DNA from: a virus
Lineage: Duplodnaviria; Heunggongvirae; Uroviricota; Caudoviricetes
Strand: one strand, 5' to 3'
DNA length: 64,000 nucleotides
Virus record (IMG/VR): IMGVR_UViG_3300027710_001079
Location: 128,833 to 192,832 of that record
The notes beneath the pieces were generated by a model that was not told the DNA's origin, made no database searches, and saw nothing but the letters and a program-made list of their open reading frames with translations. Made by a program: the position numbers and the translations under genes. Below, piece by piece: positions 6,990 to 51,861 of the stretch; the first letter of the stretch is position 1, and every line of letters starts with the position of its first letter.

Positions 6990-8405
6990 TTACAGATCGT
7001 AGCGTGGAACCATGATGGTTTTCATCATGATACCTTCTGGAGTGAATTGATCAGTGTCCGCACTCAAGACCGCTTTCACGATGCTTGGGCTAAAACCACT
7101 AACCAATGCCGCTCCACGTGTGTCATATTTGACAGGCACGTTGTCGCTAGCGTTCAAGTTCCAGAACACAATGTTTGGAACATTGTATCCTGCGTCTGTG
7201 AACTTACGCTTGATCATCTGCATAGCAGAGTCATCGTACTTGGCACAGGCGTCGAACTGCATGTCGCTCAAGATCAACAGCATCTTTGGCATGTCTTCTT
7301 GTGGAACACTACCTTTAACAGCTACACTAAGGATCTTGTCCATAGCCTTAACCAAGTTAGTGTTCATGTCCCACTTAGACTTAACCATTTGTTCTGCCTT
7401 TTGAACCACATTACCCTTCAGAGTCAACAGTTCTGGAGAACCACTGAATGTTAGGAATGTGTCCTTGAACGCACCTTTGTTCTTATCAGCAAGGTACAAG
7501 CCCAAGCTAACAGCAACATCCATACAAGAGAAAGAACTTCCCTTACCTGCTGGTGTGCTCATAGAGCCGCTAACGTCTACCAAAGGTAGGATGCTAGCAT
7601 CGCCAACAAAGTTAGGCAGTGCTTCCCACTGTGCCACAATGTGGTCCAGTTCTGTCTTGCCAAAGTTGACGCCACCGTAGTGGTTAATCACGCCCTTCAA
7701 GACATCGTATGGGTAAACAGCACCAGCATTAACTTTAACACCTGCTTCGCCCTTTGCCAATTTAGCCACGTATTCCGCAAACTTTTCAGTATGGCGGCCG
7801 AAGGCCTTCTTGTAACGTGCTGCCGCAACGCTTGGCACGTGGTTGAAGTTGATGTTGTCCCAGTCGTTGGCACACATTTGTGTTTCAACAACATTAGTCA
7901 ACGCCACAAGACTCTTACGATATTGCTTAGGAGACATACCGAAGAAATCACGGATTTCAGCGGCAATCTTGCCCTTACGAGGAGTCCACTTTGCAGCCAA
8001 GCCATTGCGAGCACGAAGTGCATCGCCTAGCATAGTGAAAGCCTTGGCCTTCAATGCTTTAGACTCGAATACAAACAAGTCGTCCCAACGACCAAGTTCA
8101 GGGATCTTATCCATCAGAACTTCTGCGGCAGCTGGATCATTCTTTTCCAGGTACTTCAAGATGCTACGGAACAGTTCACGTTCACCAGAACCTCCACGGA
8201 CGTCACGAGCCCATTGTGCGACACGCAGGGCTAGATCTTTGTCTTCCACATAAGCGGCAACAAAGTCCTTAGTGATGTCCTTACCACGGCTTGCACCGAT
8301 CTTGAAGAACAGATCAACTACTGCGTTGGCAGTAGATTTACGAGCCTTCATGCCATTGGCAGTACGGGCTTCTTGGTTTTTAACGGCTTCTACAAATGCG
8401 TTCAT
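6990..8405 (-). CDS. rsr: Ro60/Rsr-like ribonucleoprotein (TROVE domain + vWA domain with MIDAS)
   Basis: N-terminus NGMKARKSTANAVVDLFFKIGASRG resembles the Ro60 TROVE entry motif. The C-terminal vWA has a LVDVSGSMS (DxSxS) MIDAS motif. 471 aa. Confidence 0.55.
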   Translation of the reverse strand: MNAFVEAVKNQEARTANGMKARKSTANAVVDLFFKIGASRGKDITKDFVAAYVEDKDLALRVAQWARDVRGGSGERELFRSILKYLEKNDPAAAEVLMDKIPELGRWDDLFVFESKALKAKAFTMLGDALRARNGLAAKWTPRKGKIAAEIRDFFGMSPKQYRKSLVALTNVVETQMCANDWDNINFNHVPSVAAARYKKAFGRHTEKFAEYVAKLAKGEAGVKVNAGAVYPYDVLKGVINHYGGVNFGKTELDHIVAQWEALPNFVGDASILPLVDVSGSMSTPAGKGSSFSCMDVAVSLGLYLADKNKGAFKDTFLTFSGSPELLTLKGNVVQKAEQMVKSKWDMNTNLVKAMDKILSVAVKGSVPQEDMPKMLLILSDMQFDACAKYDDSAMQMIKRKFTDAGYNVPNIVFWNLNASDNVPVKYDTRGAALVSGFSPSIVKAVLSADTDQFTPEGIMMKTIMVPRYDL

Positions 8406-15310: not shown

Positions 15311-16081
15311 TTATTTAAGTAACCACTTGAATAAAGTACAAGGGTCATACTCCCAATATTTACCACTAACCCCAGAACCAAAATCAAATGACTTTGGATC
15401 TTTATGGTGATTGTTATGCCATCCTTGGCCCCATGCAAAAATTCCTAAAATAGGAACATTAGTTGACAGGTCTTTTAACTCGAAATTTCTATACCCGGCG
15501 GCAGGAGTATGGCCAAATAAATCTACTAGATTTTCTTGGTGTTGTGCTATGGTCATTGCAATAACAAATCCATATAAGGCTGCTTGCCAGGAAATCAATC
15601 CAACAACTAGCAATGTAATCCAAATGATTTTATTGTAGTGTTTATGTATGAATAAATGAAATGGATCTCTTAACAAGTCAACAGCGTATTTCAAGTTAAC
15701 ATCGGTGGGCTTTAACTTGAATATCCAGCCCATATAGGCACTCCACTTGCCGTGTATAGGGCTGTGGAAATCTTTAACTGTGTCAGCCGATGCATGATGA
15801 TATCCTCTATGCAATGCTACCCAAAATATAGGGCTTCCTTGACATCCAAACATACCTAACACAGCTAATACTTTTTTCTTCCACGGTACAACTGCTAAAG
15901 CATTATGACTTATAATTCTGTGATAGCCAACAGCGATTCCCAGGCCACTAAACAGTGTCCAAAAGATAAAACTGCTCCATAGCCAAATCCAGTCATGCAG
16001 TACAAACATAGTCGTAACTGCTAGAACAAATAGAATATGTATTGGAATAGTAATACTTTTTACATGTTGACTTGTAAACAT
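15311..16081 (-). CDS. membrane fatty-acid (acyl-lipid/acyl-CoA) desaturase
   Basis: Three histidine boxes: HRIISH, HRGYHH, HNNHH. Hydrophobic segments between them. Confidence 0.7.
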   Translation of the reverse strand: MFTSQHVKSITIPIHILFVLAVTTMFVLHDWIWLWSSFIFWTLFSGLGIAVGYHRIISHNALAVVPWKKKVLAVLGMFGCQGSPIFWVALHRGYHHASADTVKDFHSPIHGKWSAYMGWIFKLKPTDVNLKYAVDLLRDPFHLFIHKHYNKIIWITLLVVGLISWQAALYGFVIAMTIAQHQENLVDLFGHTPAAGYRNFELKDLSTNVPILGIFAWGQGWHNNHHKDPKSFDFGSGVSGKYWEYDPCTLFKWLLK

Positions 16082-20443: not shown

Positions 20444-21019
20444 TTACTTAACTCCTAACAATCGTTTAGCTCTTGAATAGTTATTACCCTTTGCCGCAAT
20501 ACCTGCCTTAAGCAAACCTTGCCTGATATTATCAGTTTCTTTTAGGCATTGTAGTAAGAACTCATCCGAGACTTCATTTACTCCATTCCTAGATGGTTTG
20601 TTTCTTCCTCGCCAAGTATCAGTAATACTATGGCAGTTCGGACACAATCCTTCTAAGTTTTCTCTACTATTATTAGTAGTGTTGCCATCTTTGTGTTCTA
20701 GTTCAAGCGGAATCTTAAACCCCTGCCATTCACTTACACCGCATCTATTACAGCAATGATTTTGTTCTTCAAACACCCTGCGGCGTCTGTTTTCAGAACC
20801 CAACTCGGCAAACGGTGTAGCATTGTATTTGTCTAATCGTGCTTGCCTAATGTTTGCTTTCCATTGTTCTGGATTTGCCCTAACTGCTGTTCGTCCTGCC
20901 AACTTAGCAGAACGACTTTCATTTATATCTTTACTCCACTCTCTGCTATTGGCACAAGAGCGTGAGCAGTATAAGCCTGCTTTTTCGTGTTCTTTGTTAC
21001 ACTTAGGACATTGTTTCAT
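20444..21019 (-). CDS. HNH homing endonuclease
   Basis: Zinc-finger-like CPKC...CSRSC pair, then ELEHKDGN...NLEGLCPNCH HNH motif. Embedded in the tRNA array. Confidence 0.7.
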   Translation of the reverse strand: MKQCPKCNKEHEKAGLYCSRSCANSREWSKDINESRSAKLAGRTAVRANPEQWKANIRQARLDKYNATPFAELGSENRRRRVFEEQNHCCNRCGVSEWQGFKIPLELEHKDGNTTNNSRENLEGLCPNCHSITDTWRGRNKPSRNGVNEVSDEFLLQCLKETDNIRQGLLKAGIAAKGNNYSRAKRLLGVK

Positions 21020-21832: not shown

Positions 21833-22486
21833 TTAAACCTTTATAATTCTGCCCTTACTCCACCCATTTGGAATATCATCAGACTTTTTAATTTTTTTAT
21901 TTTCTATGCCGTTAGTAATCCACATAGTTCCAAACTGTGAGCCTTTTTCACCTTTACCTCTCCCAGTTCTTTGCCATGTTAATTTCTTCTTAGCAATTGC
22001 CTCTGGAGAATTAGCTACTGACAACGCAGTCCAGTAATTTGGATTTTTTACAGAAGAGTTTCCAAGTTTACCTAATTGGCTCCGTTCTTCAGGAGTTAAT
22101 TGTGCCATTCTTGATTTTCCGCCCTTCGATGACTCGTTAGGAGTTAACTTAAAATTTTTACTATGCTTATTGATATAATCAAATCCGCCGTAGCCTCCTC
22201 GTCTTTTATTGTAAACATCTGTTCTTAATAAAAATTCTTCGTTTACAATTTCTTTTTCTCGATTAAACATAGACTCTGAAGTATCGAATGTTTCTAATAT
22301 TCTTTTGGAAAAATTTTCAATTCCGAACTCTTTATATGCTTTATGAAGTTCTGAACCAGACCCCATATAACCGTCATCCATATTTTTAGTTTTATGGACT
22401 CCAACATAAATCATATTGTTTATGTTGTTTCTAATTTCGTACAAATAGTAGTATCTCATAAAACTATTTATACTTTGTGTGGGCAA
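21833..22486 (-). CDS. GIY-YIG homing endonuclease
   Basis: N-terminal YYLYEIRN...MIYVGV GIY-YIG motif, then RRGGYGG. Embedded in the tRNA array. Confidence 0.65.
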   Translation of the reverse strand: MPTQSINSFMRYYYLYEIRNNINNMIYVGVHKTKNMDDGYMGSGSELHKAYKEFGIENFSKRILETFDTSESMFNREKEIVNEEFLLRTDVYNKRRGGYGGFDYINKHSKNFKLTPNESSKGGKSRMAQLTPEERSQLGKLGNSSVKNPNYWTALSVANSPEAIAKKKLTWQRTGRGKGEKGSQFGTMWITNGIENKKIKKSDDIPNGWSKGRIIKV

Positions 22487-22774: not shown

Positions 22775-22775
22775 G

Positions 22776-24449: not shown

Positions 24450-24525
24450 ATAATTAAACAGGTTGCTTTTTTACGTTTTCAATTAAAAGTTGAATGTATT
24501 ATGTTTGCTGAACGCAACCTAAACT

Positions 24526-24599
24526 TGGTTCCTAGAACAAGAATCGAACTTGTAATGACCGGTTATCAGCCGATTGTTATACCATTTAACTATCCAGGA
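24526..24599 (-). tRNA. tRNA-Ile: tRNA-Ile(GAT), second copy
   Basis: Hand fold. D arm GTTA-AATGGTA-TAAC, anticodon stem ATCGG/CCGGT, loop CTGATAA, T arm ACAAG-TTCGATT-CTTGT, CCA encoded. Confidence 0.7.
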
Positions 24600-27698: not shown

Positions 27699-29018
27699 AT
27701 GAAAGACATCTTAGACCAAATTCGACAGTTCATCGAAGAAAAACAAAAGAACAAAACTTGGACTGCGGGCAAGGATTTTGTTAACTATGCAGGCCCACAT
27801 TTTAACGCAGACGAATATGTTGCGGCAGCAGAAACATTACTAGGCGGTTGGCTAGTAATGGGCGATAAGAGTTTGAAATTTGAAAAAGAATTCCCTAAGC
27901 AATTTGGCAAAATGAACGGCATCTTAACCAACAGCGGGTCTAGCTCGAACTTGTTGATGATGTCTGCGTTGACCAGTAAGCGTGGATATAACTTGCCTAA
28001 GGGTACTAAGGTACTGATGCCTATCGCAGGCTTCCCTACTACACTTAACCCAACATTACAGGTAGGATTTACTCCTGTATTCTGTGATATTGAAATTGAA
28101 ACACTAAACATTGATTTGAAACATGCAGAACAGTTACTCGAAGCTGATCCAGAAATTCGTGTAATTACATTTGCTCACGTGTTAGGTAATCCTCCAAACA
28201 TGGACAAGGTAATGGAATTGGTAAAGAAGTACAACCTTATCTTGTTAGAAGATTGTTGCGATGCATTAGGCAGCACATATGATGACAAACCATTAGGTAG
28301 CTTTGGAGAAATGGCATCATGCAGTTTCTATCCTGCACACCACATGACAATGGGCGAAGGCGGATACGTTGCATGTAACGATTACCAGCAAGAAGTTATC
28401 TTACGTAGTTTCCGTGAATGGGGTCGCGGTTGCTACTGTGTTGGTCCTGAGGCTAACAAACTAAAGTGCGGCAGTTGCGGTAAACGCTTCCAAGAATGGA
28501 TTCCAGAACTACCTGGGGAAATTTTTGATCACAAATATGTCTATGACGAGATCGGTTATAATCTCAAGCCTATTGAAATTCAAAGTGCAATGGGATTAGT
28601 GCAACTTAACAAGTTGGAAGAAATTCATGCACTTCGTAAACGTAACTATTCATTACTCTTTGAAATCTATTCAAAGTACGAAGACTTCTTTTATTTGCCA
28701 CGTCCGCAAGCTAAAGCAGATCCTAGCTGGTTTGCATTCCCGTTAACCGTTAGAGAAAATGCACCTTTCAAACGTGCAGACATTGTAGACTACCTGGAAG
28801 AAAATTTAATTCAAACTCGTCCTTACTTTGCTGGCAACATTATGTTACAGCCTGCGTACTCGCACATTATGGCACCGCAGAAAGCCAAAGACGACTTCCC
28901 AGTTGCTACTCTGACAATGACTAACACTTACTTCCACGGAACTAGTCCAGTTATCACTCCTGAACAGATTGCTTATATTGGCGAGACTGTTGACGGCTTT
29001 ATGAGTTTATTCAAATGA
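27699..29018 (+). CDS. DegT/ColD/E1-family PMP-dependent sugar 3-dehydratase (His in place of PLP-Lys, 4-Cys cluster)
   Basis: SFYPAHHMTMGEGG matches the ColD/E1 (DdhC) active site, where His replaces the DegT lysine. CYCVGPEANKLKCGSCG suggests a [2Fe-2S] site as in E1. Confidence 0.6.
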   Translation: MKDILDQIRQFIEEKQKNKTWTAGKDFVNYAGPHFNADEYVAAAETLLGGWLVMGDKSLKFEKEFPKQFGKMNGILTNSGSSSNLLMMSALTSKRGYNLPKGTKVLMPIAGFPTTLNPTLQVGFTPVFCDIEIETLNIDLKHAEQLLEADPEIRVITFAHVLGNPPNMDKVMELVKKYNLILLEDCCDALGSTYDDKPLGSFGEMASCSFYPAHHMTMGEGGYVACNDYQQEVILRSFREWGRGCYCVGPEANKLKCGSCGKRFQEWIPELPGEIFDHKYVYDEIGYNLKPIEIQSAMGLVQLNKLEEIHALRKRNYSLLFEIYSKYEDFFYLPRPQAKADPSWFAFPLTVRENAPFKRADIVDYLEENLIQTRPYFAGNIMLQPAYSHIMAPQKAKDDFPVATLTMTNTYFHGTSPVITPEQIAYIGETVDGFMSLFK

Positions 29019-30181
29019 AAAGTTTAAGCCAAGTAACATCTAAGATTGACGGACAGCCAATGTTCAAGTATTTGGACATGGCTAAGGCTTTAGAAGCTAA
29101 AGGTCGGCACCTTATCCATATGGAGATAGGTGAGCCAGACTTTGACACGCCTAAGAATGTTACTTGGGCTGCTGTTCAGTCTTTATCTAACGGTGAAACA
29201 CACTACGGAAGTAGTTACGGTTTACAAGAGTTTAGAGAAGCTGTTCAGTTTGCTACAGAACGTAGCAGAGGATTTAAACCCGATTTAGATCAAGTGCTGA
29301 TTACGCCAGGTGCTAATATTGCTATCTACTATGCAGTATTCTGTTTAGTCGATCCGGGATTCGAAGTTATTGTTCCAGATCCCGGCTTCAGTACATATTA
29401 TAGTAATATCAAAATGTGTGGTGCGGTTCCAGTTCGTGTGCCGTTAAAAGAAGAAAACGAATTCCGTATGAACCCTGATGATATTGAAGCGGCTATTACA
29501 GACAAGACCCGCTTGATTATTATTAACAGTCCGCAAAATCCTACAGGCAGTGTGTTAACCACTGACGAAGTAAAACGCATTTACGAAATTGCCAAGAAGC
29601 ACGACATCTACATTTATAGTGATGAAATTTATGCACGTATGAACTATGAGCCAATTGGCTTTGCAAGTCCTAGCATTTATGATCATTGTAAAGAACATGT
29701 TATCCTTAGTAACGGTTTTAGTAAAGCGTTTGCTATGACTGGCTGGCGTCTAGGTACACTTATCGGTCCCGCAAATGTTATTGAACGTATGGCGGCACTA
29801 TTACAGACTACATCAAGTTGTGTAAGTCCGTTTGTTCAACGTGCTGGCATTGAAGCTATTCGTGGCAGTCAAGAAGCAGTTACAAACATGATGGCAGAAT
29901 ATCGAGCACGTAGAGATTTGTTAGTTGACGGACTTAATCGTGTTAAGGGTATCACTTGTCTAAAACCCGGCGGTGCTTTTTATGTATTTCCTAATATCAA
30001 AGGAACCGGACTAACAAGTGATCAAGTTGTTGATAAACTAATGGATGCGGGTGTAGTAACACTGCCCGGTCATTGCTTCGGAGAACACGGCGACGGTTAT
30101 ATTAGATTGTGCTATGCAACCAGTCGTGAAAATATTCAAGAAGCATTGAATAGAATTTACAAAGCATTGGGGACAAAATGA
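29015..30181 (+). CDS. class I/II PLP-dependent aminotransferase
   Basis: SNGFSKAFAMTGWRLG carries the PLP-lysine motif of aspartate-aminotransferase-fold enzymes. 388 aa. Confidence 0.7.
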   Translation: MKSLSQVTSKIDGQPMFKYLDMAKALEAKGRHLIHMEIGEPDFDTPKNVTWAAVQSLSNGETHYGSSYGLQEFREAVQFATERSRGFKPDLDQVLITPGANIAIYYAVFCLVDPGFEVIVPDPGFSTYYSNIKMCGAVPVRVPLKEENEFRMNPDDIEAAITDKTRLIIINSPQNPTGSVLTTDEVKRIYEIAKKHDIYIYSDEIYARMNYEPIGFASPSIYDHCKEHVILSNGFSKAFAMTGWRLGTLIGPANVIERMAALLQTTSSCVSPFVQRAGIEAIRGSQEAVTNMMAEYRARRDLLVDGLNRVKGITCLKPGGAFYVFPNIKGTGLTSDQVVDKLMDAGVVTLPGHCFGEHGDGYIRLCYATSRENIQEALNRIYKALGTK

Positions 30182-43949: not shown

Positions 43950-43957
43950 TTCACACC

Positions 43958-44737
43958 TTAATTACCAGTGGTAATGCTGTATGTGTTTCCGCTTCCTGCT
44001 ACAGCAAGATTAACATTGGTATTGATACTACCACTCTGTACAACTGTGGTATTGTTATTTGATCCATTGATATTCAATGTTGCAATGTGACCATCGGCAC
44101 CACCACCACTTTGGGTAATGTTAGTTGCGTTACTAGCACCTAATATAGTTAAATCTACTGTGCCTTTTGCACCAGTTAAATTTAACGTAGTGTTGTTTGC
44201 AGTTCCACCAGTCTTATTAATGTTTACACTAACTTGATCCGCATTGATTGTAGCAACGATTTGATTCAAGTTGCCGTCTGTTACAGCACTAAAGGTGTTG
44301 TTAGATCCTAGCATATTAAGATTGGCAATAGTATTGTCACCTGTTTGATCAATAGAAACAGTGTTACTATTTGCAGTACCCTGTTCGCTATTGTTCATAT
44401 TGATTGTACCAATACCGTTATTACCAGTTACTCGATATAGAATACTAGTATCAACGCCGCCACTAGCTGTGGCAGTTACAACGCCTAGATTTAAAATGTT
44501 ACCACTACCAACTTGTTCAACAGTCAAAGTTACGTTGTCGCCTTTGATTTTTGACGGGGTAGTGTTGCCCGTGCCCGTGCCTTGAATTCCTCGGATACGG
44601 TTTGTTGCACCATCCTGTAGCATGGTGATAACAGAGTTGTCGCCTGTTTGATCAATATAGATACTATTGTCTGCTGCGAAAACTTGTGAAGCGAACAACA
44701 TCACGATCGCTGTCATTACTTGATTTAGCTTCTTCAT
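43958..44737 (-). CDS. curlin-repeat amyloid subunit (CsgA/CsgB-like)
   Basis: Signal peptide. Repeated (S/I)-x-Q-x-G-x-x-N units, e.g. IDQTGDNSV, VEQVGSGNI, SIDQTGDNTI. Confidence 0.55.
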   Translation of the reverse strand: MKKLNQVMTAIVMLFASQVFAADNSIYIDQTGDNSVITMLQDGATNRIRGIQGTGTGNTTPSKIKGDNVTLTVEQVGSGNILNLGVVTATASGGVDTSILYRVTGNNGIGTINMNNSEQGTANSNTVSIDQTGDNTIANLNMLGSNNTFSAVTDGNLNQIVATINADQVSVNINKTGGTANNTTLNLTGAKGTVDLTILGASNATNITQSGGGADGHIATLNINGSNNNTTVVQSGSINTNVNLAVAGSGNTYSITTGN

Positions 44738-44794
44738 ATATTTCTTCAGTTCTTTTGAAACTGCTCCTTGGGGTGTTATTTGTTGCTCCCCGAT

Positions 44795-45709
44795 TTACTT
44801 GGCCCTAACTTCTTTGCTTCCTCCAGCATCTTTCTCGTTGCTGGGCTGTGTCGTTGCGGCTGTGCCTTGTGGGGCTCTTTCGCTTTCGGTGTTCTTTTGA
44901 ACCAACTCATTTTTTTCTCCCTTATAGTCCCAAAGCCCTTTACGAGCTCCTTCTTTAATAAGTTCAACCACGCCTGCTTCAATTGCTGATTTTACAGCAT
45001 ATGTTCCCGGCTCGTTTATTGTAAATCCTGCTTCACCTTCGAATGCTCTGGTGCCCATGTCAAAGAATTTAAGAGCAGTTACAGCATCGGCAGAACTGAG
45101 AATAGTTTTCTGTACAGTCACTGACGCTAATATTTTACCAGTATTAACACTCACCGCTCTTATACTGATAGTCACAACATCTTGACTCCACTGTGTTTGC
45201 TTACCGATGCCGAACACTCTAGCACCGAGGCCGCCGCTTTTTGTTGAGCTATCATAGCCCACAATACCACCTTCAATAATCATTCCAGCAAATTGCATTG
45301 GCATCAAAGGTTTAGCACTTGGCCCCTCATACGCTTCACGCATCTGTCTAATGATTAATCTTTCTTTGGTTAAATTATCAAGCCCTACACGCTCAACAAC
45401 ATCAAACCATTGTCCTTTGCCTACATCCTGTAATGCCTTGATCAAAAACGATTCTGCACCCTGTGTCACTGCCATTGACAAACTAGCAATGTTACTCTGC
45501 GGACGTCTCTGTCCTGTCATATCTCTAAAACTGTATACAGCCACACTCACAGGTTTGCCGCCAGCCGGTGCAGGAATAGTATCAAATTCTTTCTGCATCA
45601 TTACTTTTGCTACTTCAGGCTTGTCTGCCTCCACTAAAGGATTATTTTGATGTATTGCACAGCCAGACAACAGTGTTACGATCGCCAGTGTTAATAATGT
45701 CTTTTTCAT
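44795..45709 (-). CDS. csgG: curli production assembly/transport lipoprotein CsgG
   Basis: Lipobox LLSGCA. IPAPAGGKPVSVAVYSF..TGQ, WFDVVERVGLDNL..ER.IIR and GYDSSTKSGGLGARVFGIGKQTQ...VNTGKILASV...KTILS align block-by-block with E. coli CsgG. Confidence 0.85.
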   Translation of the reverse strand: MKKTLLTLAIVTLLSGCAIHQNNPLVEADKPEVAKVMMQKEFDTIPAPAGGKPVSVAVYSFRDMTGQRRPQSNIASLSMAVTQGAESFLIKALQDVGKGQWFDVVERVGLDNLTKERLIIRQMREAYEGPSAKPLMPMQFAGMIIEGGIVGYDSSTKSGGLGARVFGIGKQTQWSQDVVTISIRAVSVNTGKILASVTVQKTILSSADAVTALKFFDMGTRAFEGEAGFTINEPGTYAVKSAIEAGVVELIKEGARKGLWDYKGEKNELVQKNTESERAPQGTAATTQPSNEKDAGGSKEVRAK

Positions 45710-45710
45710 A

Positions 45711-46190
45711 TTATTTTCCTGGAATTACAAATTGGCTTAGGGGAATATCAATAGTTGTATTAATATCAGGACCAACTACGGTTAAACGAATCATATCTCC
45801 GTTCACCAAATCAGAAATTTTTTCCCACTTGATTTTACTTCCTTGGAAGTCTACTTCACCTGAACAAGTTGTTGACGTTGTAGTGCAACCACTGTTGGCA
45901 AACATAGCTGTAGCTACGTTTTGACTAATCTGTGCATAAATTCTAGATTCTAAGTTGTTTAAAAACTTAGCTAAGTTAGTATTCTTTTTATCAGCGGCTT
46001 CTTTATCAATGGCCGCTTGGATTTTGTCTTGAAGAGCTTTACGACGAGTAGCTTCTTGATTCTCAATCGTCAAGACGTGACTGCTATATCCTATGCCGTT
46101 GAAAGCAGGACTTTTAAAAGTAAAGTCGTTTATTGGTGCAGCCTGTGCAGTCATCGCAGACAAGGCCAGGCTGAGAATTAAAAATCGCAT
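45711..46190 (-). CDS. csgF: curli assembly protein CsgF-like
   Basis: Signal peptide, then TFKSPAFNGIGYSS (compare E. coli TFQFRNPNFGGNPNNG). Size ~140 aa mature, immediately upstream of csgG. Confidence 0.55.
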   Translation of the reverse strand: MRFLILSLALSAMTAQAAPINDFTFKSPAFNGIGYSSHVLTIENQEATRRKALQDKIQAAIDKEAADKKNTNLAKFLNNLESRIYAQISQNVATAMFANSGCTTTSTTCSGEVDFQGSKIKWEKISDLVNGDMIRLTVVGPDINTTIDIPLSQFVIPGK

Positions 46191-46266
46191 CCTAAGTCCC
46201 CAGTGTAGTGTATTAGTATTTACTAGGGTGGAATGAGAAATTTAAGCAGCAGTTTATTAATCTAGA

Positions 46267-47913
46267 TTAAATTCCTGGTTTAATACCAGTTTGTGGTGCG
46301 GGAGTTGTGCCTAGTGTACCTTTAGACTGAACTGGTGCACCTATTTTAGGTTTGCTTACTGCTAGTGCAGGCTGCTTTGGTGCCGCTACAGTGGGTTTAA
46401 CCGCAGGTTGTTTTGCAGCTAATTTATTAACAGGCTGTGGCTGTTTAGCCTGTTGCTCTATGTGATTTTCAATATCAGCAATGTTTTTCAGCAACGACCC
46501 CATACCTAACATGTTACGAATAGATCCATCTTTTAATTGCGATGTCAAATCTACTAGTTTACTATTAGCATCTTTTCTTCCCGGAACATACTTCTTTGCA
46601 ATACTGCCTACCGGAAATCCGTAAATTGAAATATTAAAAGAAGAAGCTCTATCAGATTCTGTAACGACTAATTGTAATTGTTTTAATGCTTGATAAAACG
46701 CTGGACCAAAATCTAGTTCTTTAAAGGCTTTCTTGTCATCAGGATCTAAAATAACCATTTCAACACCTTCTTCGTGTCTAGTTAAGTGATGCAATAATCC
46801 TTGATAAACATCTTCAACTAAATTTGCCTGATCAGTCGCTGCCCTAGATTTCAGCTGTTTAAATGCTGTACTAAAGGCACTACTAACACCGTTGTTAAAG
46901 TTATGTTCCTTTTGGTCAGAAGTATCGCGTGTACCCGGGCGAATATCGTAGAAATATTTCTTTAGAGTAGGTGGCAAAGTTACACCCACAGCATTGAAAA
47001 ATTCACTAACGTGTTCAAAATTTGCACCAGTAACTTGTCCAAATTGTGCTACGTTTCCTGCTTTAATGCTTAGTAATCTCTTTGCAGATTCTTTGCCGTC
47101 GATTAAAATTTTTAAATCTACTTTAGTACTGCTTTGATTTTCTTTCTCGCCACCATCGCTGATAACGTCAACTTTGTTTTGTTGAGGATCATTTGCTGCT
47201 TCTTGAATAGCTGCCTGTACTCTTTTCGAAGTATTTGCATATTCAATTGCAGTTCTAGCACGTCTTTCAATCAATGCGATCGACTCAGCAGGTACGTTGT
47301 AATCTTGTAAAGATCGACCACGACTATCTTCGTTCAACCAAGCATAAAACGCTTTCTTATCCATAAAAGGAATTGACACTTTAAAAATAAGTTTATCTTT
47401 TCCTGCGGTTGTTTCGATATAGCCTTTATTACGAGCAATCTGTTTGCCCATAGACACTAGTTGCTGTTCTGTTACTGGCTTGCCGCCTGATGCAAATTTT
47501 GCAGCTACTGCACATCCTAATAACGCTTCGGAGATATTGCCCATGTTAGGCTTTAGTTCTCCCTTGATTTTTTCATCTTTAAAAATGCTGTTAATAGGAA
47601 CGTTTTCAATAACTCTTCCAGTTGAGTTTCCGTCCTCATCAACTTCTGCTACTGAAAATTTAATTTTTGCGGCGGCGAAATCTTTTTGATCCCAATCTGC
47701 AACAGCATCTCCAACAGCCTGTCTAACTAGTTCGGGATTTTGGATAATTCCCTCAAACCTGTTTCCTTTTGGAAATTCGAAAGCATATACTTGTTGATTT
47801 TCTAATCCATCAATGAAACTATCAATGTATTTCTCTTTCATCCATTCGCTATTGGTCATCATTCCTTCTTTAAGAAATGATCTTGATTCTTTTAAAAATT
47901 CACGTGCTCGCAT
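46267..47913 (-). CDS. hypothetical protein with Pro/Ala/Lys-rich C-terminal tail
   Basis: ORF-track 548 aa. Confidence 0.4.
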   Translation of the reverse strand: MRAREFLKESRSFLKEGMMTNSEWMKEKYIDSFIDGLENQQVYAFEFPKGNRFEGIIQNPELVRQAVGDAVADWDQKDFAAAKIKFSVAEVDEDGNSTGRVIENVPINSIFKDEKIKGELKPNMGNISEALLGCAVAAKFASGGKPVTEQQLVSMGKQIARNKGYIETTAGKDKLIFKVSIPFMDKKAFYAWLNEDSRGRSLQDYNVPAESIALIERRARTAIEYANTSKRVQAAIQEAANDPQQNKVDVISDGGEKENQSSTKVDLKILIDGKESAKRLLSIKAGNVAQFGQVTGANFEHVSEFFNAVGVTLPPTLKKYFYDIRPGTRDTSDQKEHNFNNGVSSAFSTAFKQLKSRAATDQANLVEDVYQGLLHHLTRHEEGVEMVILDPDDKKAFKELDFGPAFYQALKQLQLVVTESDRASSFNISIYGFPVGSIAKKYVPGRKDANSKLVDLTSQLKDGSIRNMLGMGSLLKNIADIENHIEQQAKQPQPVNKLAAKQPAVKPTVAAPKQPALAVSKPKIGAPVQSKGTLGTTPAPQTGIKPGI

Positions 47914-47919: not shown

Positions 47920-48588
47920 TTATTTACCAATTTCAGGGAACAGCACTTGATCAACAAACTGCCGAATAGTTGTTTCTGGAACGCCCATTGCAATCATACT
48001 GCGGTACACATGCGGATTCTGTTTCTGATTTTGACAGTAGTAATTTTGCCGCTCAGTAACATCAACTCCGTTAATCCTGTCTCCTATATTATGCAGGTAG
48101 TAATCTAGGGTTTTAATCCCTAAATCAACAAGATTATCTAATTCTGTTTGCTCACTGATGTTGCCCGCGGCTACCATTGCAGGACTAAAAATATTGCGGG
48201 CCCATTCCGGTAGTTCGCGTTGTTTATTCCAGGTTATGCTACTGGCAGTTTCTTTAAACCATTCGTGCATATAATGACTGTCGTTTACAAGACTAAAGTC
48301 GTGAAACGCACCAGTAATCTTATTCTTACCACAAACGGCATCAAATCCCCAAATAGGACTAGGATCGTCTACGTGTGGGAACACTGTTGCATGTAGAATA
48401 TATATTCCGTGTGTTGCAGTTTTATCTACTACTTCAACGTGCCCTCTACGGAACAGGTTGCTGTGGTATACGTGATTTTCCCAGTCGTATTGATCTAAGC
48501 TAGGATCTTCTGCTCTGTAACCTGCATGTTCCATCATAGACTGCATCGTTTCGGCACACTGCCGCATCTGTGTCCATACTGTGCTCAT
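47920..48588 (-). CDS. ferredoxin-dependent bilin reductase (FDBR; PebB/PcyX-like)
   Basis: VDKTATHGIYILHATVFPHVDDPSPIWGFDAVCGKNKITGAFHDFS is the FDBR core. Paralog of the adjacent gene. Confidence 0.6.
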   Translation of the reverse strand: MSTVWTQMRQCAETMQSMMEHAGYRAEDPSLDQYDWENHVYHSNLFRRGHVEVVDKTATHGIYILHATVFPHVDDPSPIWGFDAVCGKNKITGAFHDFSLVNDSHYMHEWFKETASSITWNKQRELPEWARNIFSPAMVAAGNISEQTELDNLVDLGIKTLDYYLHNIGDRINGVDVTERQNYYCQNQKQNPHVYRSMIAMGVPETTIRQFVDQVLFPEIGK

Positions 48589-49301
48589 TGATGTACTCCT
48601 ATCTTAGGAAATAGGCAGTCCTGTATAAACACACGAACGTCTTCTGGATTTAGTCCTAATGCAGTCATCACCTTAGGAGTGTGGGGATTCTGTCTTTGAT
48701 TTTCACAGTAGTAATCTTGCGAAGGTCCGGTGTCTAATGCAGTACCGTTAGTTTCACCTACAGCACTAATATAATGCTTCAAGTTATTAATAGCAGTAAA
48801 ATACAGTTGTTGAAGCTCCTCTGGATCATTGACATTTCCTGCACTGATCATACTGGGAGTAAAGATACGTTCTGCCCAGTCTGGTAAACGTCTAACTTTG
48901 TTCCATTCTAATTTTTGTGCTTCGTCTGCAAAGTAATCTAACATAGGATGCTCAGGATCACCTGCAGGACTAAAGTCGTGAAATGCACCTGTTACTTTGT
49001 TTCTGCCAGCTACTACATCGAACCCAAAGATAGGTGCAGGATTATGAGTATGCGGAAACACACAACAATGCATCATCCAGAGACCTCGAGTTTCTCTAGC
49101 ATCAACAACATCTATATGTGCTCGGCGATATAATTTACTGGTCCAGACTTTGTTGTACCAACTAAATCTTTCTAGGCCTGGCTCTTGTATTTCTGTTCCA
49201 CTGAGATTGAATTGTCTTTCAAACTCAGTTTGTATATCAATTAGACTGTTCCAGACCAAGCTCATTGTTATATGACTCCATAATTTTGATAGCCCATTCA
49301 A
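48585..49301 (-). CDS. ferredoxin-dependent bilin reductase (FDBR; PebA/PebS-like)
   Basis: VDARETRGLWMMHCCVFPHTHNPAPIFGFDVVAGRNKVTGAFHDFS FDBR core. Confidence 0.6.
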   Translation of the reverse strand: MNGLSKLWSHITMSLVWNSLIDIQTEFERQFNLSGTEIQEPGLERFSWYNKVWTSKLYRRAHIDVVDARETRGLWMMHCCVFPHTHNPAPIFGFDVVAGRNKVTGAFHDFSPAGDPEHPMLDYFADEAQKLEWNKVRRLPDWAERIFTPSMISAGNVNDPEELQQLYFTAINNLKHYISAVGETNGTALDTGPSQDYYCENQRQNPHTPKVMTALGLNPEDVRVFIQDCLFPKIGVHQ

Positions 49302-49788
49302 AAGCTACATTGGCTTCATCGCCCATGCTGTCATCTAACTTAGCACGAATGTTAGTTTTTAATGTGTTAGCATCTTCAAATTCTAAATTGCGGTGTGGAC
49401 CTGGAACAATTTTCTTGATCATTTGTCCACCAAACATATCTCCCATGTGCCACACATATAAATGTGCCATAATTTTATTAGGGTCTTGACTGATGCTTAA
49501 AATATAATTGTAATAATCAATAACTAATGATCGATATGAATGACGAGGATACCCCTCATTCATATCGTTGTAGTCCATGTTTAGATAAAATGCTCTACGC
49601 AGATCTGGAAGATCTCCTAGCAATCTATTAGCACCTGCTGCTCCTTCAATTGCACCGTAAAATAATGACTTCTGTAAAGTCCAATCTGTCCATACTTCTC
49701 TTGGTAATGTTTTTGCAAACACTGCCTTCATAAAAGGTGTGTGTTCTGCTCTATCATGATTTTCTGCTGTTAGTTCTTTAAGACTCAT
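49237..49788 (-). CDS. ho1: heme oxygenase
   Basis: LKELTAENHDRAEHTPFMK and KIMAHLYVWHMGDMFGGQMIKK align with the HO-1 motifs LKEATKEVHTQAENAEFMR and [22 protein letters not shown]. Confidence 0.8.
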   Translation of the reverse strand: MSLKELTAENHDRAEHTPFMKAVFAKTLPREVWTDWTLQKSLFYGAIEGAAGANRLLGDLPDLRRAFYLNMDYNDMNEGYPRHSYRSLVIDYYNYILSISQDPNKIMAHLYVWHMGDMFGGQMIKKIVPGPHRNLEFEDANTLKTNIRAKLDDSMGDEANVAFEWAIKIMESYNNELGLEQSN

Positions 49789-51015
49789 TTAATCCTCGTA
49801 ACGTTCTAATACTGCACAAGCGGCCCTGCCACCAAATGCAAAATTATTCTTTATCGCATACTTAGCCACTATTGCGGTAGCCTTAGTGGGGATATTGATT
49901 CCTACATCAATTGGGTTAATTAAATTTACAGTAGGAGGTGATATTTGATCTCGTAGTGCTAACACAGTATAGATAGTTTCAACAATCCCACTGGCTGCTA
50001 ATGTGTGTCCAATTTGACCTTTATTTGCAGTCATTGTAGTGCCTGGCAATAAGTCACGCATAGCATAGAATTCAATGTCGTCGCCTGCTTTTGTTCCAGT
50101 AGCATGTGCATTAATATAACCGACATCTGCTAACTGTATGCCTGCTTGCTTTATTGCTCTGGTTACTGCTAATTTTGCAGCATCACCATTTTTATCCGGT
50201 GCAGTATCATTATTGCCACATGTGGCAATTCCTACAGACTTGATTATTCCGTAAATCTTTGCACCTCGTGCCTTAGCTTTATCTAACGGTTCGACAATTA
50301 GTGTGCCAGCGGCTTCTCCTACTACAAATCCTGATCTATCTTTGTCAAAAGGTCTACTTGCAATTTCTGCTGGTTGTAAACTTAATGCACCGAGATTTTG
50401 AAAGTAGTATACTTGGAAGCCTTCAATCGGTACATCGGCACCTCCCACAATGACAGCATCGAGATCGTCATTGAATTCTAGTTGCTTAATAGCATAATCA
50501 AGACCAGTCAGTCCAGTTGAACATGCAGAGTGCATCGAAGTTGACCCACCGTTACATTCGTATATTCTAGCAATCAATCCGCTAATGTAATCCGCAGTTG
50601 CCTGTATTACTTGCCTCGGGGAAACTCTCTCGCGACCATCTTCTAGTTGCCGCATCATGTATGCTCTACTATGTAAACTTCCGCCGGTGGTACTAAACAC
50701 TACTGAAACATTTTTGCTAGTAAGACTGCTGTCTCTGATAGCATCTCTAGCAGTGTGCATTGATATTTTAACACACGGATCCCAATACTGGTGATGTCCT
50801 CCGAATTCTGTTTCTTCAAACGCAGGCAGCGGGCACGGTGCCCCAGAAGAGACAATTAAAGATTTATGTGTTCTTGGAAATTTTGTTGGATCATCTTCGG
50901 GCCACTTGATTTGTTTAATTGCAGTTTCCCCTGCTAACAAATTCAGCCAATTTTCCTGTACGCTTGCTCCAAGACCGTTGATAATTCCCATTCCGGTAAT
51001 GGCGTACTGTTTCAT
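49789..51015 (-). CDS. beta-ketoacyl-ACP synthase (KAS I/II, FabF/FabB-like)
   Basis: Active-site Cys in SMHSACSTG, then HATGTKAGD and GHTLAASG (the Cys-His-His triad region). Confidence 0.7.
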   Translation of the reverse strand: MKQYAITGMGIINGLGASVQENWLNLLAGETAIKQIKWPEDDPTKFPRTHKSLIVSSGAPCPLPAFEETEFGGHHQYWDPCVKISMHTARDAIRDSSLTSKNVSVVFSTTGGSLHSRAYMMRQLEDGRERVSPRQVIQATADYISGLIARIYECNGGSTSMHSACSTGLTGLDYAIKQLEFNDDLDAVIVGGADVPIEGFQVYYFQNLGALSLQPAEIASRPFDKDRSGFVVGEAAGTLIVEPLDKAKARGAKIYGIIKSVGIATCGNNDTAPDKNGDAAKLAVTRAIKQAGIQLADVGYINAHATGTKAGDDIEFYAMRDLLPGTTMTANKGQIGHTLAASGIVETIYTVLALRDQISPPTVNLINPIDVGINIPTKATAIVAKYAIKNNFAFGGRAACAVLERYED

Positions 51016-51320
51016 TCTTCTTCGATCCTTACTGCTAGCGGCCAGCCATTTTGTCTAGCAAGCATTGTGCTTTCTACACCTTTTTGCTCTGCGACTTCAT
51101 ATGTATAAACACCGGCAATACCTGCACCTTGTTCGTGTACCTGCATTGTTATTTCCCTTGCCTTTGCCTCACTGTGCTTAAACACATGCATCAACAATGC
51201 AATGACAAAATCCATTGGGGTGTGATCATCATTTAGTACAATCACTTTATACATGCCGGGCGTTATAATGTCGAAATCTTCTTCAATATCAACAATATCT
51301 TTGGTTTTGGTATTTGCCAT
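51012..51320 (-). CDS. clpS: ATP-dependent Clp protease adaptor ClpS
   Basis: MYKVIVLNDDHTPMDFVIALLMHVFKH is the canonical ClpS core. 102 aa. Confidence 0.8.
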   Translation of the reverse strand: MANTKTKDIVDIEEDFDIITPGMYKVIVLNDDHTPMDFVIALLMHVFKHSEAKAREITMQVHEQGAGIAGVYTYEVAEQKGVESTMLARQNGWPLAVRIEEE

Positions 51321-51356
51321 ATAGACTTTCTAAAAAGGGGGCCGGAGCCCCCGGGC

Positions 51357-51782
51357 TTACTTGATGGCGATCAAGCGAGGCTTGAGTGCTTCAGGTACTA
51401 CTCGTGTAAGTTTAACACGAAGAATACCGTTTGTCAACTCTGCATCGCCCACAATCATGTAGTCTGCCAGTGTAAAGCTTCGCTCAAAATCACGAGCAGC
51501 TAGCCCACGATGTAGGTATTTGCTAGCATCGTCTTCTTTTAACCGATTGCCTTTAATGGTCAGTAGATTTTGATCCACTTCCACAGTAACGTCCTCTCGA
51601 TCAAAGCCTGCCACAGCGATTTCGATCTCAAAGTGATCGTCATCGTGTTTCAGAACATTGTACGGAGGGTAGTTGGTTTGTACGGAGTTTGCAAATCGCT
51701 TTTCAACATCGTTAAAAAGGCTGTCAAATCCAATAAGTGCTCTGTTTAGAGCCTGAGTGTCAAATCGTGTTAATGCGTTCAT
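51357..51782 (-). CDS. ibpA: small heat-shock protein (Hsp20/IbpA family)
   Basis: PPYNVLKHDDDHFEIEIAVAGFDREDVTVEVDQNLLTIKG alpha-crystallin domain. Start set at the internal MNALTRF. Confidence 0.75.
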   Translation of the reverse strand: MNALTRFDTQALNRALIGFDSLFNDVEKRFANSVQTNYPPYNVLKHDDDHFEIEIAVAGFDREDVTVEVDQNLLTIKGNRLKEDDASKYLHRGLAARDFERSFTLADYMIVGDAELTNGILRVKLTRVVPEALKPRLIAIK

Positions 51783-51861
51783 AGTTTTCTCCTTAATAAG
51801 CAAGAACGTTTTGGGCACCATGCCCATTTTGTAGAACCCTAACGGCGTCCTACAAAATTAT

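What the first reader, a model, noticed from the sequence alone, without database searches (positions are those of the whole stretch)
47920..49788. Heme oxygenase plus two paralogous ferredoxin-dependent bilin reductases in a non-cyanophage-looking context
The HO signature motifs and two FDBR cores (..FPH..P.PI(F/W)GFD.V.G.NK(V/I)TGAFHDFS) form a three-gene block capable of making biliverdin and then a phycobilin (PebA/PebB-like pair or PcyX-like). The rest of the window points to a gammaproteobacterial rather than cyanobacterial host (E. coli-like RpoZ, curli, heptose). This resembles the metagenomic PcyX-type phage FDBRs whose role in heterotroph-infecting phages is unresolved.
Basis: partly seen in the sequence, partly recalled or inferred. 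Interest (0 to 1): 0.7.

Follow-up and report, generated by a model that had tools for sequence, protein, structure and literature searches.

The report
Phage heme-to-bilin operon, two reductases
A large uncultured freshwater phage carries a heme oxygenase followed by two different bilin reductases of the phage PcyX lineage, one with the active-site signature of the pink-pigment (PEB) enzyme and one with that of the blue-pigment (PCB) enzyme. This suggests that the pigments themselves matter to phages that do not seem to infect cyanobacteria.

Summary
Window 47920-49788 (- strand) holds three tightly coupled genes: a heme oxygenase (HO, 183 aa), FDBR-A (226 aa from ATG 49265) and FDBR-B (222 aa).

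Both reductases belong to the PcyA/PcyX branch. The best solved match for each is PcyX 5OWG (E 2e-65 and 3e-45). Neither is PebA/PebB-like.

They are not recent duplicates (41.5% identical).
- FDBR-A is a canonical PcyX with the Asp-His-Asp triad.
- FDBR-B belongs to a large, phage-only sister clade that I did not find described. It carries the PcyA states Glu, Ile and Leu at PcyA positions 76, 86 and 87 and keeps His88 and Asp105.

In 142 non-redundant related phage loci the same island (Hsp20-ClpS-HO-FDBR...CsgF-CsgG) holds:
- an Asp-type reductase alone in 84 loci;
- a Glu-type reductase alone in 51;
- both in 6, always in the order HO-Asp-Glu;
- a Gln variant in 1.

All three genes are under strong purifying selection (dN/dS 0.05-0.07).

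The best reading is HO -> biliverdin, then PEB made by A and, by inference, PCB made by B. The products were not tested.

The window is a tRNA-rich jumbo-type phage. Its host is unresolved: probably a proteobacterial heterotroph, not shown to be a gammaproteobacterium.

HO plus PcyX in non-cyanophages is already known. The Asp/Glu dimorphism and the tandem are a new variant.

The parts
49237..49788 (-). Heme oxygenase (183 aa), first gene of the cassette. Its ATG directly follows the TAA of the upstream KAS gene, with GAGGA 5 nt upstream.
   Evidence: PF01126, E 5e-14. It is 56% identical to a Grosse Fuchskuhle phage HO, 31% to the Mosig HO and 27% to the experimentally active CB_2 vHemO. The sequence shows T-x3-H11-x2-AE and GDMFGGQ, which are the proximal-His and distal-helix motifs of HO-1-type enzymes (my own knowledge). 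Junction. dN/dS 0.058 against L003.
48585..49265 (-). FDBR-A, a PcyX-type bilin reductase (226 aa from ATG 49265; the mechanical ORF starts at TTG 49301). Triad Asp52-His66-Asp83, equivalent to PcyX Asp55-His69-Asp86. It overlaps the HO 3' end by 29 nt.
   Evidence: PF05996. 5OWG PcyX at E 2e-65, with PcyA next at ~1e-14. 45% identical to PcyX and 47.6% to the Mosig FDBR. Nested in the Asp55 clade. Asp is present in 86 of 86 distinct A-type sequences. The 226-aa start is the one used by public gene calls. dN/dS 0.048.
47920..48588 (-). FDBR-B, a Glu-type bilin reductase (222 aa). Triad Glu52-His66-Asp83, equivalent to PcyA Glu76-His88-Asp105. It also has Ile64 and Leu65, the PcyA Ile86 and Leu87 states. 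Its start overlaps the FDBR-A stop (ATGA), with AGGAG 7 nt upstream.
   Evidence: PF05996. 5OWG at E 3e-45. 34% identical to PcyX, 36% to CB_2 vPcyA and 41.5% to FDBR-A. The B clade has 81% bootstrap support. Glu is present in 179 of 181 distinct B-type sequences, His in 181 of 181 and Asp in 180 of 181. AlphaFold model pLDDT 91.3; best folds are PcyA (TM 0.78-0.82) and PcyX. dN/dS 0.071. Junction.
49789..51320 (-). Context, upstream genes of the probable same transcription unit: ClpS (51012..51320) and a KAS II-like beta-ketoacyl synthase (49789..51015).
   Evidence: Pfam ClpS at E 1e-27 and ketoacyl-synt at E 3e-35; fabF-like, below the equivalog cut-off. ClpS lies next to HO in most related loci. 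KAS is present only in 3 of the 6 two-FDBR loci.
51337..51352 (-). Context: an intrinsic-terminator-like hairpin (GGGGGCTCCGGCCCCC + T run) between Hsp20 and ClpS, marking the likely 5' boundary of the ClpS-KAS-HO-A-B unit.
   Evidence: No further terminator-like site was found on the - strand down to the end of the scanned stretch (45500).
51357..51827 (-). Context: the Hsp20 small heat-shock protein, a conserved first member of the island.
   Evidence: PF00011 at E 1e-18 and phrog_432 at E 8.5e-40. Present in 119 of 136 related loci.
44795..47913 (-). Context, downstream genes: a hypervariable 548-aa ORF (46267..47913), CsgF (45711..46190) and CsgG (44795..45709).
   Evidence: CsgF and CsgG are found in about 40% of related loci. 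The 548-aa ORF is only 54-61% identical between otherwise near-identical phages.

Best explanation
This is an auxiliary metabolic operon of a large (about 230 kb or more) uncultured freshwater phage.

Shown by sequence:
- A heme oxygenase and two intact ferredoxin-dependent bilin reductases of the PcyA/PcyX (AX) branch are translationally coupled and under purifying selection.

Inferred mechanism:
- During infection the HO opens host heme to biliverdin IXalpha, releasing Fe and CO.
- FDBR-A is a canonical PcyX (Asp-His-Asp). It reduces biliverdin through 15,16-dihydrobiliverdin to phycoerythrobilin.
- FDBR-B belongs to a phage-only sister clade that I did not find described. It has kept the PcyA residues Glu76, Ile86 and Leu87 needed for reduction of the D-ring 18-vinyl group. 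It is therefore predicted to make phycocyanobilin, or at least a bilin different from that of A.
- Both enzymes draw electrons from host ferredoxin, since no ferredoxin gene is seen in the window.

Inferred history:
- Related phages carry the same island with either the Asp type or the Glu type.
- This phage descends from a Glu-type lineage into which a PcyX gene was inserted between HO and the resident reductase.

Keeping two reductases with different predicted regiospecificity argues that the bilin products are what is selected, not merely the removal of biliverdin.
For: Identity of the three genes.

The triad was mapped by hand from the PDB alignments: PcyX D55/H69/D86 = PcyA E76/H88/D105 = residues 52/66/83 in both window proteins.

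Clade-discriminating columns over 86 A-type and 181 B-type distinct sequences:
- Position 55: D in 100% of A, E in 99% of B.
- Position 67: M in 100% of A, I in 90% of B (PcyA has Ile86).
- Position 68: M in A, L in 91% of B (PcyA has Leu87).

Literature:
- Glu76 is essential for 18-vinyl reduction, and PcyX has Asp there and makes PEB (PMC13446030).
- The freshwater phage CB_2 enzyme lacks Asp55 and makes PCB (PMC11480375, section 10). Its sequence has Glu at this position.

Tree: the phage PcyX-like clade has 89.5% support. Inside it, the B clade (81%) is sister to the Asp clade. CB_2 and Bradyrhizobium PcyA fall outside.

Census: 84 Asp-only, 51 Glu-only, 1 Gln-only and 6 Asp+Glu loci, the order always HO-Asp-Glu, all in the same Hsp20-ClpS-HO island.

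The HO co-segregates with the reductase type. The HOs of Asp+Glu phages are nearest to Glu-only HOs, at 78-80% identity.

dN/dS is 0.058, 0.048 and 0.071 for HO, A and B.

Coupled junctions and a single upstream terminator.

Recurrence in independent assemblies.

Functional precedent: cyanophage P-RSM6 has adjacent pebS (PEB synthase) and pcyA (PCB synthase) genes.
Against: - No product was measured. Specialists state that FDBR regiospecificity is 'not reliably predictable' from sequence or phylogeny (PMC13193486).
- FDBR-B is only 36% identical to the one Glu-bearing phage enzyme shown to make PCB (CB_2). It branches with PcyX, not with CB_2 or Bradyrhizobium PcyA.
- B differs from both PcyA and PcyX at other conserved pocket-region columns (Thr68, Cys86, Val194, Ser197).
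- Support for the Asp clade as a whole is weak (45%). The tree is neighbour-joining on 149 columns, not maximum likelihood.
- No bilin-binding protein, lyase or ferredoxin was found in the 64 kb, so there is no visible consumer of either pigment.
- The HO is short (183 aa) and only 27% identical to a tested phage HO.
Confidence: 0.5

Rival explanations
1. The two reductases are redundant PEB synthases. FDBR-B is simply a divergent PcyX that also makes phycoerythrobilin. The second copy raises flux or fits a different host ferredoxin or host range.
For: B groups with PcyX rather than with any proven PcyA. PcyX is its best solved sequence match. PcyX has low apparent activity, less than one tenth of PebS in vivo (PMC13197396), so extra capacity could help. 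Regiospecificity often does not follow sequence (PMC13193486).
Against: The Asp/Glu split is essentially absolute over 267 distinct sequences. It is accompanied by PcyA-like Ile and Leu at the neighbouring pocket positions, which points to a fixed functional difference. Most related phages manage with one reductase (135 of 142 loci).
Confidence: 0.2
2. The two enzymes divide the labour on one pathway, analogous to PebA/PebB but not homologous to them. A carries out the fast 15,16 reduction. B then takes the intermediate or the product, completing the A-ring reduction or also reducing the 18-vinyl group, which would give a more reduced bilin.
For: The order HO-A-B is invariant in all 6 two-reductase loci and translation is coupled by an ATGA overlap. 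PcyX works via 15,16-DHBV (PMC13193486). B has the residues PcyA uses for 18-vinyl and A-ring chemistry.
Against: Both types occur alone next to HO in 84 and 51 loci, so each must be able to use biliverdin by itself. The invariant order is equally explained by a single insertion event, or a few, into an HO-B cassette.
Confidence: 0.15
3. The cassette serves iron and heme scavenging only. HO releases iron for the many phage Fe enzymes, and the reductases merely remove inhibitory biliverdin, so the identity of the product is irrelevant.
For: The window encodes several iron-dependent enzymes: a Rieske oxygenase, a radical SAM enzyme, a fatty-acid desaturase and a cupin. No bilin-binding protein was found.
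Against: This does not explain why two distinct reductase lineages are each conserved with a fixed active-site state, nor why both are kept under dN/dS of about 0.05-0.07 in the same operon.
Confidence: 0.1
4. The phage is a freshwater cyanophage after all, and the cassette feeds phycobilisomes with PEB and PCB, as pebS and pcyA do in cyanophage P-RSM6.
For: P-RSM6 carries an adjacent PEB synthase and PCB synthase. Hsp20 is common in cyanomyophages (my own knowledge). The TROVE-like protein has its best cultured-phage hit in a Synechococcus phage, at 50% identity.
Against: No photosynthesis gene lies in the 64 kb. The CsgG, CsgF, heptose and proteobacterial-type RpoZ genes fit Gram-negative heterotrophs. 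The closest cultured carriers of the HO-PcyX and curli modules infect SAR11 and OM43. [quoted passage not shown] Large freshwater phages with ho1 + pcyX-like genes were assigned to methanotrophs (bioRxiv 10.1101/2020.02.13.942896).
Confidence: 0.05

Closest known systems
Phage HemO-PcyX two-gene cassette (metagenomic PcyX_EBK42635, PDB 5OWG; Pelagibacter phage Mosig EXVC030M)
   Same: A short HO is directly followed by an overlapping FDBR of the AX lineage. FDBR-A has the Asp-His-Asp triad and is 45-48% identical to these proteins. The cassette is restricted to phages.
   Different: The window has a second, Glu-type reductase after the PcyX gene. The cassette sits in an Hsp20-ClpS...curli island of a much larger, tRNA-rich freshwater phage, not next to the neck genes of a 141-kb pelagimyophage.
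vPcyA of the freshwater jumbo phage CB_2 (Crystal Bog), with alphaproteobacterial PcyA of Bradyrhizobium ORS278
   Same: These are AX-lineage reductases with Glu at the PcyA-76 position. CB_2 comes from a large freshwater phage with an HO nearby, and its enzyme was shown to make PCB (PMC11480375).
   Different: FDBR-B is only 36% identical to CB_2 vPcyA. It branches inside the PcyX-like phage clade, whereas CB_2 and Bradyrhizobium branch outside it. B keeps the PcyX-like GAFHDFS motif where CB_2 has GVFLDLS. No AlaS gene lies in the window.
Cyanophage P-RSM6 pebS-pcyA tandem
   Same: Two adjacent, overlapping FDBR genes in one phage, annotated as a PEB synthase followed by a PCB synthase. This is the same functional pairing I predict here.
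   Different: The P-RSM6 enzymes come from two different FDBR lineages (PebA/PebS and cyanobacterial PcyA). They sit in a Prochlorococcus phage whose host has phycobiliproteins. Here both enzymes are AX-lineage and the host is apparently not a cyanobacterium.
Cyanobacterial PebA/PebB pair
   Same: Two FDBR genes lie side by side downstream of heme oxygenase chemistry. This could in principle be a two-step route.
   Different: There is no homology at the subfamily level. PebA, PebB and PebS are the outgroup in the tree and weaker structural matches, at TM 0.53-0.74 against 0.78-0.82 for PcyA. Each window type also occurs alone with HO.

Membership tests
Ferredoxin-dependent bilin reductases (PF05996), PcyA/PcyX branch | A significant profile match and the FDBR alpha/beta/alpha fold | tested here: met
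   Both proteins score above the Pfam cut-off (57.9 and 53.6 bits against 31). The FDBR-B model has pLDDT 91.3 and TM 0.78-0.82 to PcyA structures.
PcyX (phage PEB synthase) | Placement in the phage part of the AX clade | tested here: met
   A and B both fall in the phage PcyX-like clade (89.5% bootstrap, neighbour-joining). A is nested among marine and freshwater Asp-type sequences. B is in the sister clade.
PcyX (phage PEB synthase) | The Asp55-His69-Asp86 triad, with Asp55 named the PcyX-specific catalytic residue (PMC11480375) | tested here: met
   This result is for FDBR-A only: Asp52-His66-Asp83, with Asp in 86 of 86 A-type sequences.
PcyX (phage PEB synthase) | Asp at position 55, tested for FDBR-B | tested here: not met
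   FDBR-B has Glu52. Of 181 B-type sequences, 179 have Glu and 2 have Gln. B should therefore not be filed as PcyX sensu stricto.
PcyX (phage PEB synthase) | Four-electron reduction of biliverdin to PEB via 15,16-DHBV | not testable with these tools
   This needs an enzyme assay and HPLC.
PcyA (PCB:ferredoxin oxidoreductase) | The Glu76-His88-Asp105 catalytic triad | tested here: met
   This result is for FDBR-B: Glu52-His66-Asp83, plus the PcyA states Ile and Leu at positions 86 and 87. FDBR-A does not meet it, having Asp at position 76.
PcyA (PCB:ferredoxin oxidoreductase) | Equivalog-level sequence match, or placement with proven PcyA (cyanobacterial, green, or the alphaproteobacterial/CB_2 group) | tested here: not met
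   NCBIfam PcyA equivalog NF002760 scores 88.7 and 75.2 bits against a cut-off of 206. B does not branch with CB_2, Bradyrhizobium or cyanobacterial PcyA.
PcyA (PCB:ferredoxin oxidoreductase) | Reduction of biliverdin to PCB via 18(1),18(2)-DHBV | not testable with these tools
   This needs an enzyme assay.
PebA/PebB two-enzyme PEB pathway | [quoted passage not shown] | tested here: not met
   PDB sequence searches of A and B return only PcyX and PcyA chains, with no PebA, PebB or PebS. The Peb proteins form the outgroup.
Heme oxygenase (HO-1/HemO type, PF01126) | A profile match plus the proximal-His and GDxxGG distal-helix motifs | tested here: met
   53 bits against a cut-off of 23. His11 lies in T-x3-H-x2-AE, and GDMFGGQ is present (read directly from the sequence; the meaning of the motifs is from my own knowledge). 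No NCBIfam match was found. Activity was not tested.

The most novel reading that the evidence does not exclude
The Glu-type clade, of which FDBR-B is a member, is a new functional class of phage bilin reductase. Its product is neither that of PcyX nor simply that of PcyA. In phages that carry both genes, the pair could make two different signalling or protective bilins, or cooperate to make a six-electron-reduced bilin (A-ring, 15,16 and 18-vinyl all reduced) that no single known FDBR produces. This would imply a dedicated, still unidentified bilin-binding target in heterotrophic hosts.
Probability: 0.15. Interest if true: 0.85.

Novelty: new variant of a known kind. Interest (0 to 1): 0.58.

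Why it matters
Why phages of non-photosynthetic bacteria make phycobilins is an open question.

This locus adds two things.

1. A natural, nearly absolute Asp/Glu (plus Met/Ile and Met/Leu) dimorphism separates two large sister clades of phage reductases that sit in the same genomic island. The differences fall at the positions that distinguish PEB-making PcyX from PCB-making PcyA. This gives a ready-made test set for what determines FDBR regiospecificity.

2. A small lineage of phages keeps both types in one translationally coupled operon under strong purifying selection. That is hard to reconcile with a pure 'remove biliverdin / free iron' role. It points to the bilins themselves being the useful product.

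Both ideas can be tested directly by co-expression in E. coli.

Tried and rejected
- **DNA similarity to cultured phages.** A near-identity DNA search of window 40000-64000 against 50,697 phage records found nothing. A distant DNA search of the cassette found only 67 bases in pelagiphage Mosig.

- **Host assignment failed.**
  - A search with the phage RpoZ gave more than 600 relatives, but none had an organism name. The cluster look-up added none.
  - A scan of 185,579 species genomes with the B-type alignment returned only three MAG contigs (Pirellulales, Neomarinimicrobiota, Rickettsiales). All were 42% identical or less and of the A-like kind, most likely misbinned phage DNA. No Glu-type was found.
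  - I did not attempt tRNA-based host matching, because no local bacterial tRNA set was available.

- **AlaS.** The aminotransferase at 29015..30181 looked like a possible viral AlaS, part of the 'broken cassette' of PMC11480375. It is aspartate-aminotransferase-like, so I rejected the idea.

- **Ferredoxin.** No credible 2Fe-2S or 4Fe-4S motif appears in any ORF of 50 aa or more.

- **Bilin consumers.** No phytochrome/GAF protein, globin or lyase appeared among about 90 ORFs scanned.

- **CB_2 orthology.** I considered whether FDBR-B is the CB_2-type vPcyA and rejected it on the tree and on 36% identity.

- **Recent tandem duplication.** I considered and rejected this: A and B are 41.5% identical, lie in separate deep clades, and the HO has Glu-only affinities.

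- **Technical notes.**
  - A first Biopython bootstrap tree timed out and was replaced by my own numpy neighbour-joining code.
  - A first regex census mislabelled a few loci and was redone.
  - The PcyX structure paper (FEBS J 2018) is not held, so I could not check whether a D55E variant was ever tested.
Full report
**1. What is there**

Window 47920-49788 contains exactly three co-directional ORFs on the minus strand.
- The first (49237..49788, 183 aa) matches Pfam Heme_oxygenase at E 5e-14.
- The other two (48585..49301 and 47920..48588) match Fe_bilin_red at E 1.5e-15 and 3e-14. All three are above the curated cut-offs.
- Both reductases hit PHROG 7278 'ferredoxin oxidoreductase'.

The mechanical ORF of the middle gene starts at a TTG. 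The ATG at 49265 (226 aa) has a GGAG upstream, aligns with residue 1 of PcyX, and is the start used in the gene calls on five public contigs.

The junctions are those of a coupled operon:
- The KAS stop TAA is followed at once by the HO ATG, with GAGGA upstream.
- FDBR-A starts 29 nt inside the HO 3' end.
- The FDBR-A stop overlaps the FDBR-B start (ATGA), with AGGAG 7 nt upstream.
- A strong terminator-like hairpin lies between Hsp20 and ClpS (51352..51337). No other was found on that strand downstream within the scanned stretch.

The likely unit is therefore ClpS-KAS-HO-A-B-(548-aa ORF).

**2. What kind of reductases**

Against all solved structures, both proteins hit PcyX_EBK42635 (5OWG) far better than anything else: E 2e-65 for A and 3e-45 for B. 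PcyA follows at 1e-14 to 1e-12. No PebA, PebB or PebS chain is returned.

The NCBIfam PcyA equivalog model is matched well below its cut-off, at 88.7 and 75.2 bits against 206.

An AlphaFold model of B (pLDDT 91.3, pTM 0.89) superposes best on PcyA (TM 0.78-0.82) and on PcyX. PebA, PebB and PebS match worse, at TM 0.53-0.74.

**3. The two are different**

A and B are 41.5% identical. A is 45% identical to PcyX. B is 34% identical to PcyX and 36% to the CB_2 vPcyA.

By counting through the PDB alignments, the PcyX triad Asp55-His69-Asp86 equals PcyA Glu76-His88-Asp105 and residues 52/66/83 of both window proteins.
- A reads RRAHIDVVD (Asp).
- B reads RRGHVEVVD (Glu).

The literature is explicit on what this position does:
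[quoted passage not shown] PcyX has Asp there and makes PEB instead of PCB (PMC13446030).
[quoted passage not shown] The CB_2 sequence in that paper's supplement has Glu.

**4. This is a property of two clades, not of one gene**

Searching 5.8 billion proteins with B gave more than 120 clusters that are 51-98% identical to it. Of these, 118 of 120 carry Glu in this motif.

In IMG/VR loci, all A-like reductases have Asp and all B-like ones have Glu.

Across 86 distinct A-type and 181 distinct B-type sequences, nine columns separate the clades almost perfectly. Three of them put B in the PcyA state:

| PcyX position | A-type | B-type | PcyA residue |
|---|---|---|---|
| 55 | D, 100% | E, 99% | Glu76 |
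| 67 | M, 100% | I, 90% | Ile86 |
| 68 | M, 99% | L, 91% | Leu87 |

His69 and Asp86 are conserved in both clades (100% and 99-100%).

A neighbour-joining tree was built from 80 sequences and 149 columns with 200 bootstraps. Its references came from the supplement of PMC11480375.
- All phage PcyX-like sequences group together (89.5%).
- Inside that group, the B clade plus two Grosse Fuchskuhle sequences with Ser or Cys at position 55 (81%) is sister to the Asp clade. The Asp clade contains marine PcyX, Mosig and the freshwater A-type, with weak support (45%).
- CB_2 vPcyA and Bradyrhizobium PcyA branch outside.

Glu is also the state in those outgroups and in cyanobacterial PcyA. B therefore appears to retain the ancestral residue, and Asp is derived in PcyX (inference).

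One B-type sequence (GROS21-1_SAMEA9560623) is already in the data set of PMC11480375. There the metagenomically retrieved viral FDBR sequences are described only as clustering within PcyX. I found no paper that singles out a Glu-type clade or a two-reductase cassette.

**5. Genomic setting and history**

The window is phage DNA of the jumbo kind:
- 37 tRNA genes by ARAGORN and 34 by Rfam.
- rIIA and rIIB.
- Many auxiliary genes.
- No near match to any cultured phage.

Close relatives are IMG/VR contigs of 229 kb and 164 kb and a 334.6-kb JGI contig.

Across the related loci fetched, HO and the reductase sit in a conserved island. Of 136 loci, Hsp20 is present in 119, ClpS in 120, and CsgF/CsgG in 54-55.

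After removing redundancy and requiring 1.5 kb on each side, the island holds:

| Reductase content | Loci |
|---|---|
| Asp-type only | 84 |
| Glu-type only | 51 |
| Gln variant | 1 |
| Both, always HO-Asp-Glu | 6 |

The HO co-segregates with the reductase type. The nearest neighbour is of the same type in 89 of 91 Asp loci and 52 of 57 Glu loci. The HOs of two-reductase phages are closest to HOs of Glu-only phages; for the window's group the identity is 78-80%.

The simplest history is that a PcyX gene from the Asp-type lineage was inserted between HO and the resident Glu-type gene. L102 may represent a separate event.

All three genes are under strong purifying selection between the window and its 229-kb relative, with dN/dS 0.058, 0.048 and 0.071. 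The exact FDBR-B protein is on 17 contigs from several samples.

**6. Mechanism proposed**

Shown: three intact, conserved, coupled genes with complete catalytic motifs.

Inferred:
- HO produces biliverdin IXalpha.
- A makes PEB, as characterised PcyX enzymes do.
- B reduces the 18-vinyl group and the A-ring, as PcyA does, giving PCB or at least a bilin different from A's.
- Host ferredoxin supplies the electrons, since no ferredoxin motif was found in the window.

Cyanophage P-RSM6 carries adjacent, overlapping pebS and pcyA genes. This is a precedent for a phage pairing a PEB synthase with a PCB synthase, but with enzymes from other lineages and a host that has phycobiliproteins.

The main caveat is that FDBR regiospecificity is 'not reliably predictable' from sequence (PMC13193486). 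In addition, B is only distantly related to the one Glu-bearing phage enzyme that has been tested.

I put about 0.9 on the identity and clade assignment. I put about 0.45 on PCB as B's product.

**7. Host**

Curli and heptose genes are present.

These do not single out gammaproteobacteria:
- The closest cultured-phage CsgG (45%) belongs to phages of SAR11 and of OM43 Methylophilales.
- The curli operon is a described feature of pelagimyophages (PMC7029224).
- The RpoZ relatives carry no organism names.
- Large freshwater phages with adjacent ho1 and pcyX-like genes have been linked to alpha- and gammaproteobacterial methanotrophs (bioRxiv 10.1101/2020.02.13.942896).

No bona fide bacterial genome among 185,579 species carries a Glu-type gene, so like PcyX it looks phage-exclusive.

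A non-cyanobacterial, probably proteobacterial host is likely but not shown.

**8. Verdict**

HO plus a PcyX-like reductase in phages of heterotrophs is already known. Two things are new here:
- The recognition of a large Glu-type sister clade with PcyA-like pocket residues.
- A small phage lineage that keeps both types in one operon.

This is a new variant of a known kind. Its interest is moderate to good because it yields a sharp, cheap experiment. Retention of two distinct reductases also argues that the pigments, not just heme breakdown, are what the phage needs.

Noticed in passing
window 8975-24599 (- strand): There is an array of 37 tRNA genes by ARAGORN, 34 of them confirmed by Rfam, covering nearly all amino acids. 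HNH-like (20444..21019) and GIY-YIG (21833..22486) endonuclease ORFs are interspersed.
   Followed up: partly
window 6990-9064: A TROVE/Ro-like RNA-binding protein gene (6990..8405; DUF2828 + DUF7788; phrog_850 at E 2.5e-141) lies close to a 90-nt 'tRNA-Pro' call (8975-9064) that Rfam does not confirm. This could be a Y-RNA-like partner RNA.
   Followed up: no
window 16691-16918 (-): This is a phage-encoded RNA polymerase omega subunit (RpoZ, 75 aa). More than 600 metagenomic relatives carry PF01192, on contigs of up to 381 kb. It has no PHROG family.
   Followed up: partly
window 46267-47913 (-): A 548-aa ORF directly after FDBR-B has no Pfam match. It is only 54-61% identical between phages whose flanking genes are 85-96% identical, making it a local hypervariable spot. 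It ends in a Pro/Ala/Lys-rich tail.
   Followed up: partly
window 49789-51015 (-): A KAS II (FabF)-like gene is wedged between ClpS and HO. It is present in 3 of the 6 two-reductase loci and in none of the one-reductase loci. A fatty-acid desaturase lies elsewhere in the window, at 15311..16081.
   Followed up: partly
window 37213-39285 (-): The phage encodes a CHASE2 sensor domain fused to an adenylate/guanylate cyclase (690 aa), a possible manipulator of host cyclic-nucleotide signalling.
   Followed up: no
window 41083-46190 (-): This is a curli-type module: CsgF, CsgG, a 259-aa unknown, a FecR-domain protein and an F5/8-type-C domain protein. It is conserved in about 40% of related loci. 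The closest cultured-phage CsgG proteins are in pelagiphage HTVC008M and OM43 phage Melnitz.
   Followed up: partly
window 34144-35581 (-): An AhpC/TSA peroxiredoxin lies near a CMD (AhpD-like) protein, with a 144-aa ORF between them. This suggests peroxide-defence auxiliary genes.
   Followed up: no
L133 5426-6001 (Grosse Fuchskuhle contig): In one Glu-only phage a 191-aa alpha/beta-hydrolase-like gene sits between HO and the reductase, where the window has the PcyX gene. The slot after HO appears to accept insertions.
   Followed up: no
Supplement of PMC11480375 (GROS21 sequences); tree: Other freshwater phage reductases have Ser, Cys or Val at the position-55 equivalent (GROS21_540, _823, _542). 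One IMG/VR locus has Gln. The residue is therefore a hot spot of variation beyond Asp/Glu.
   Followed up: partly
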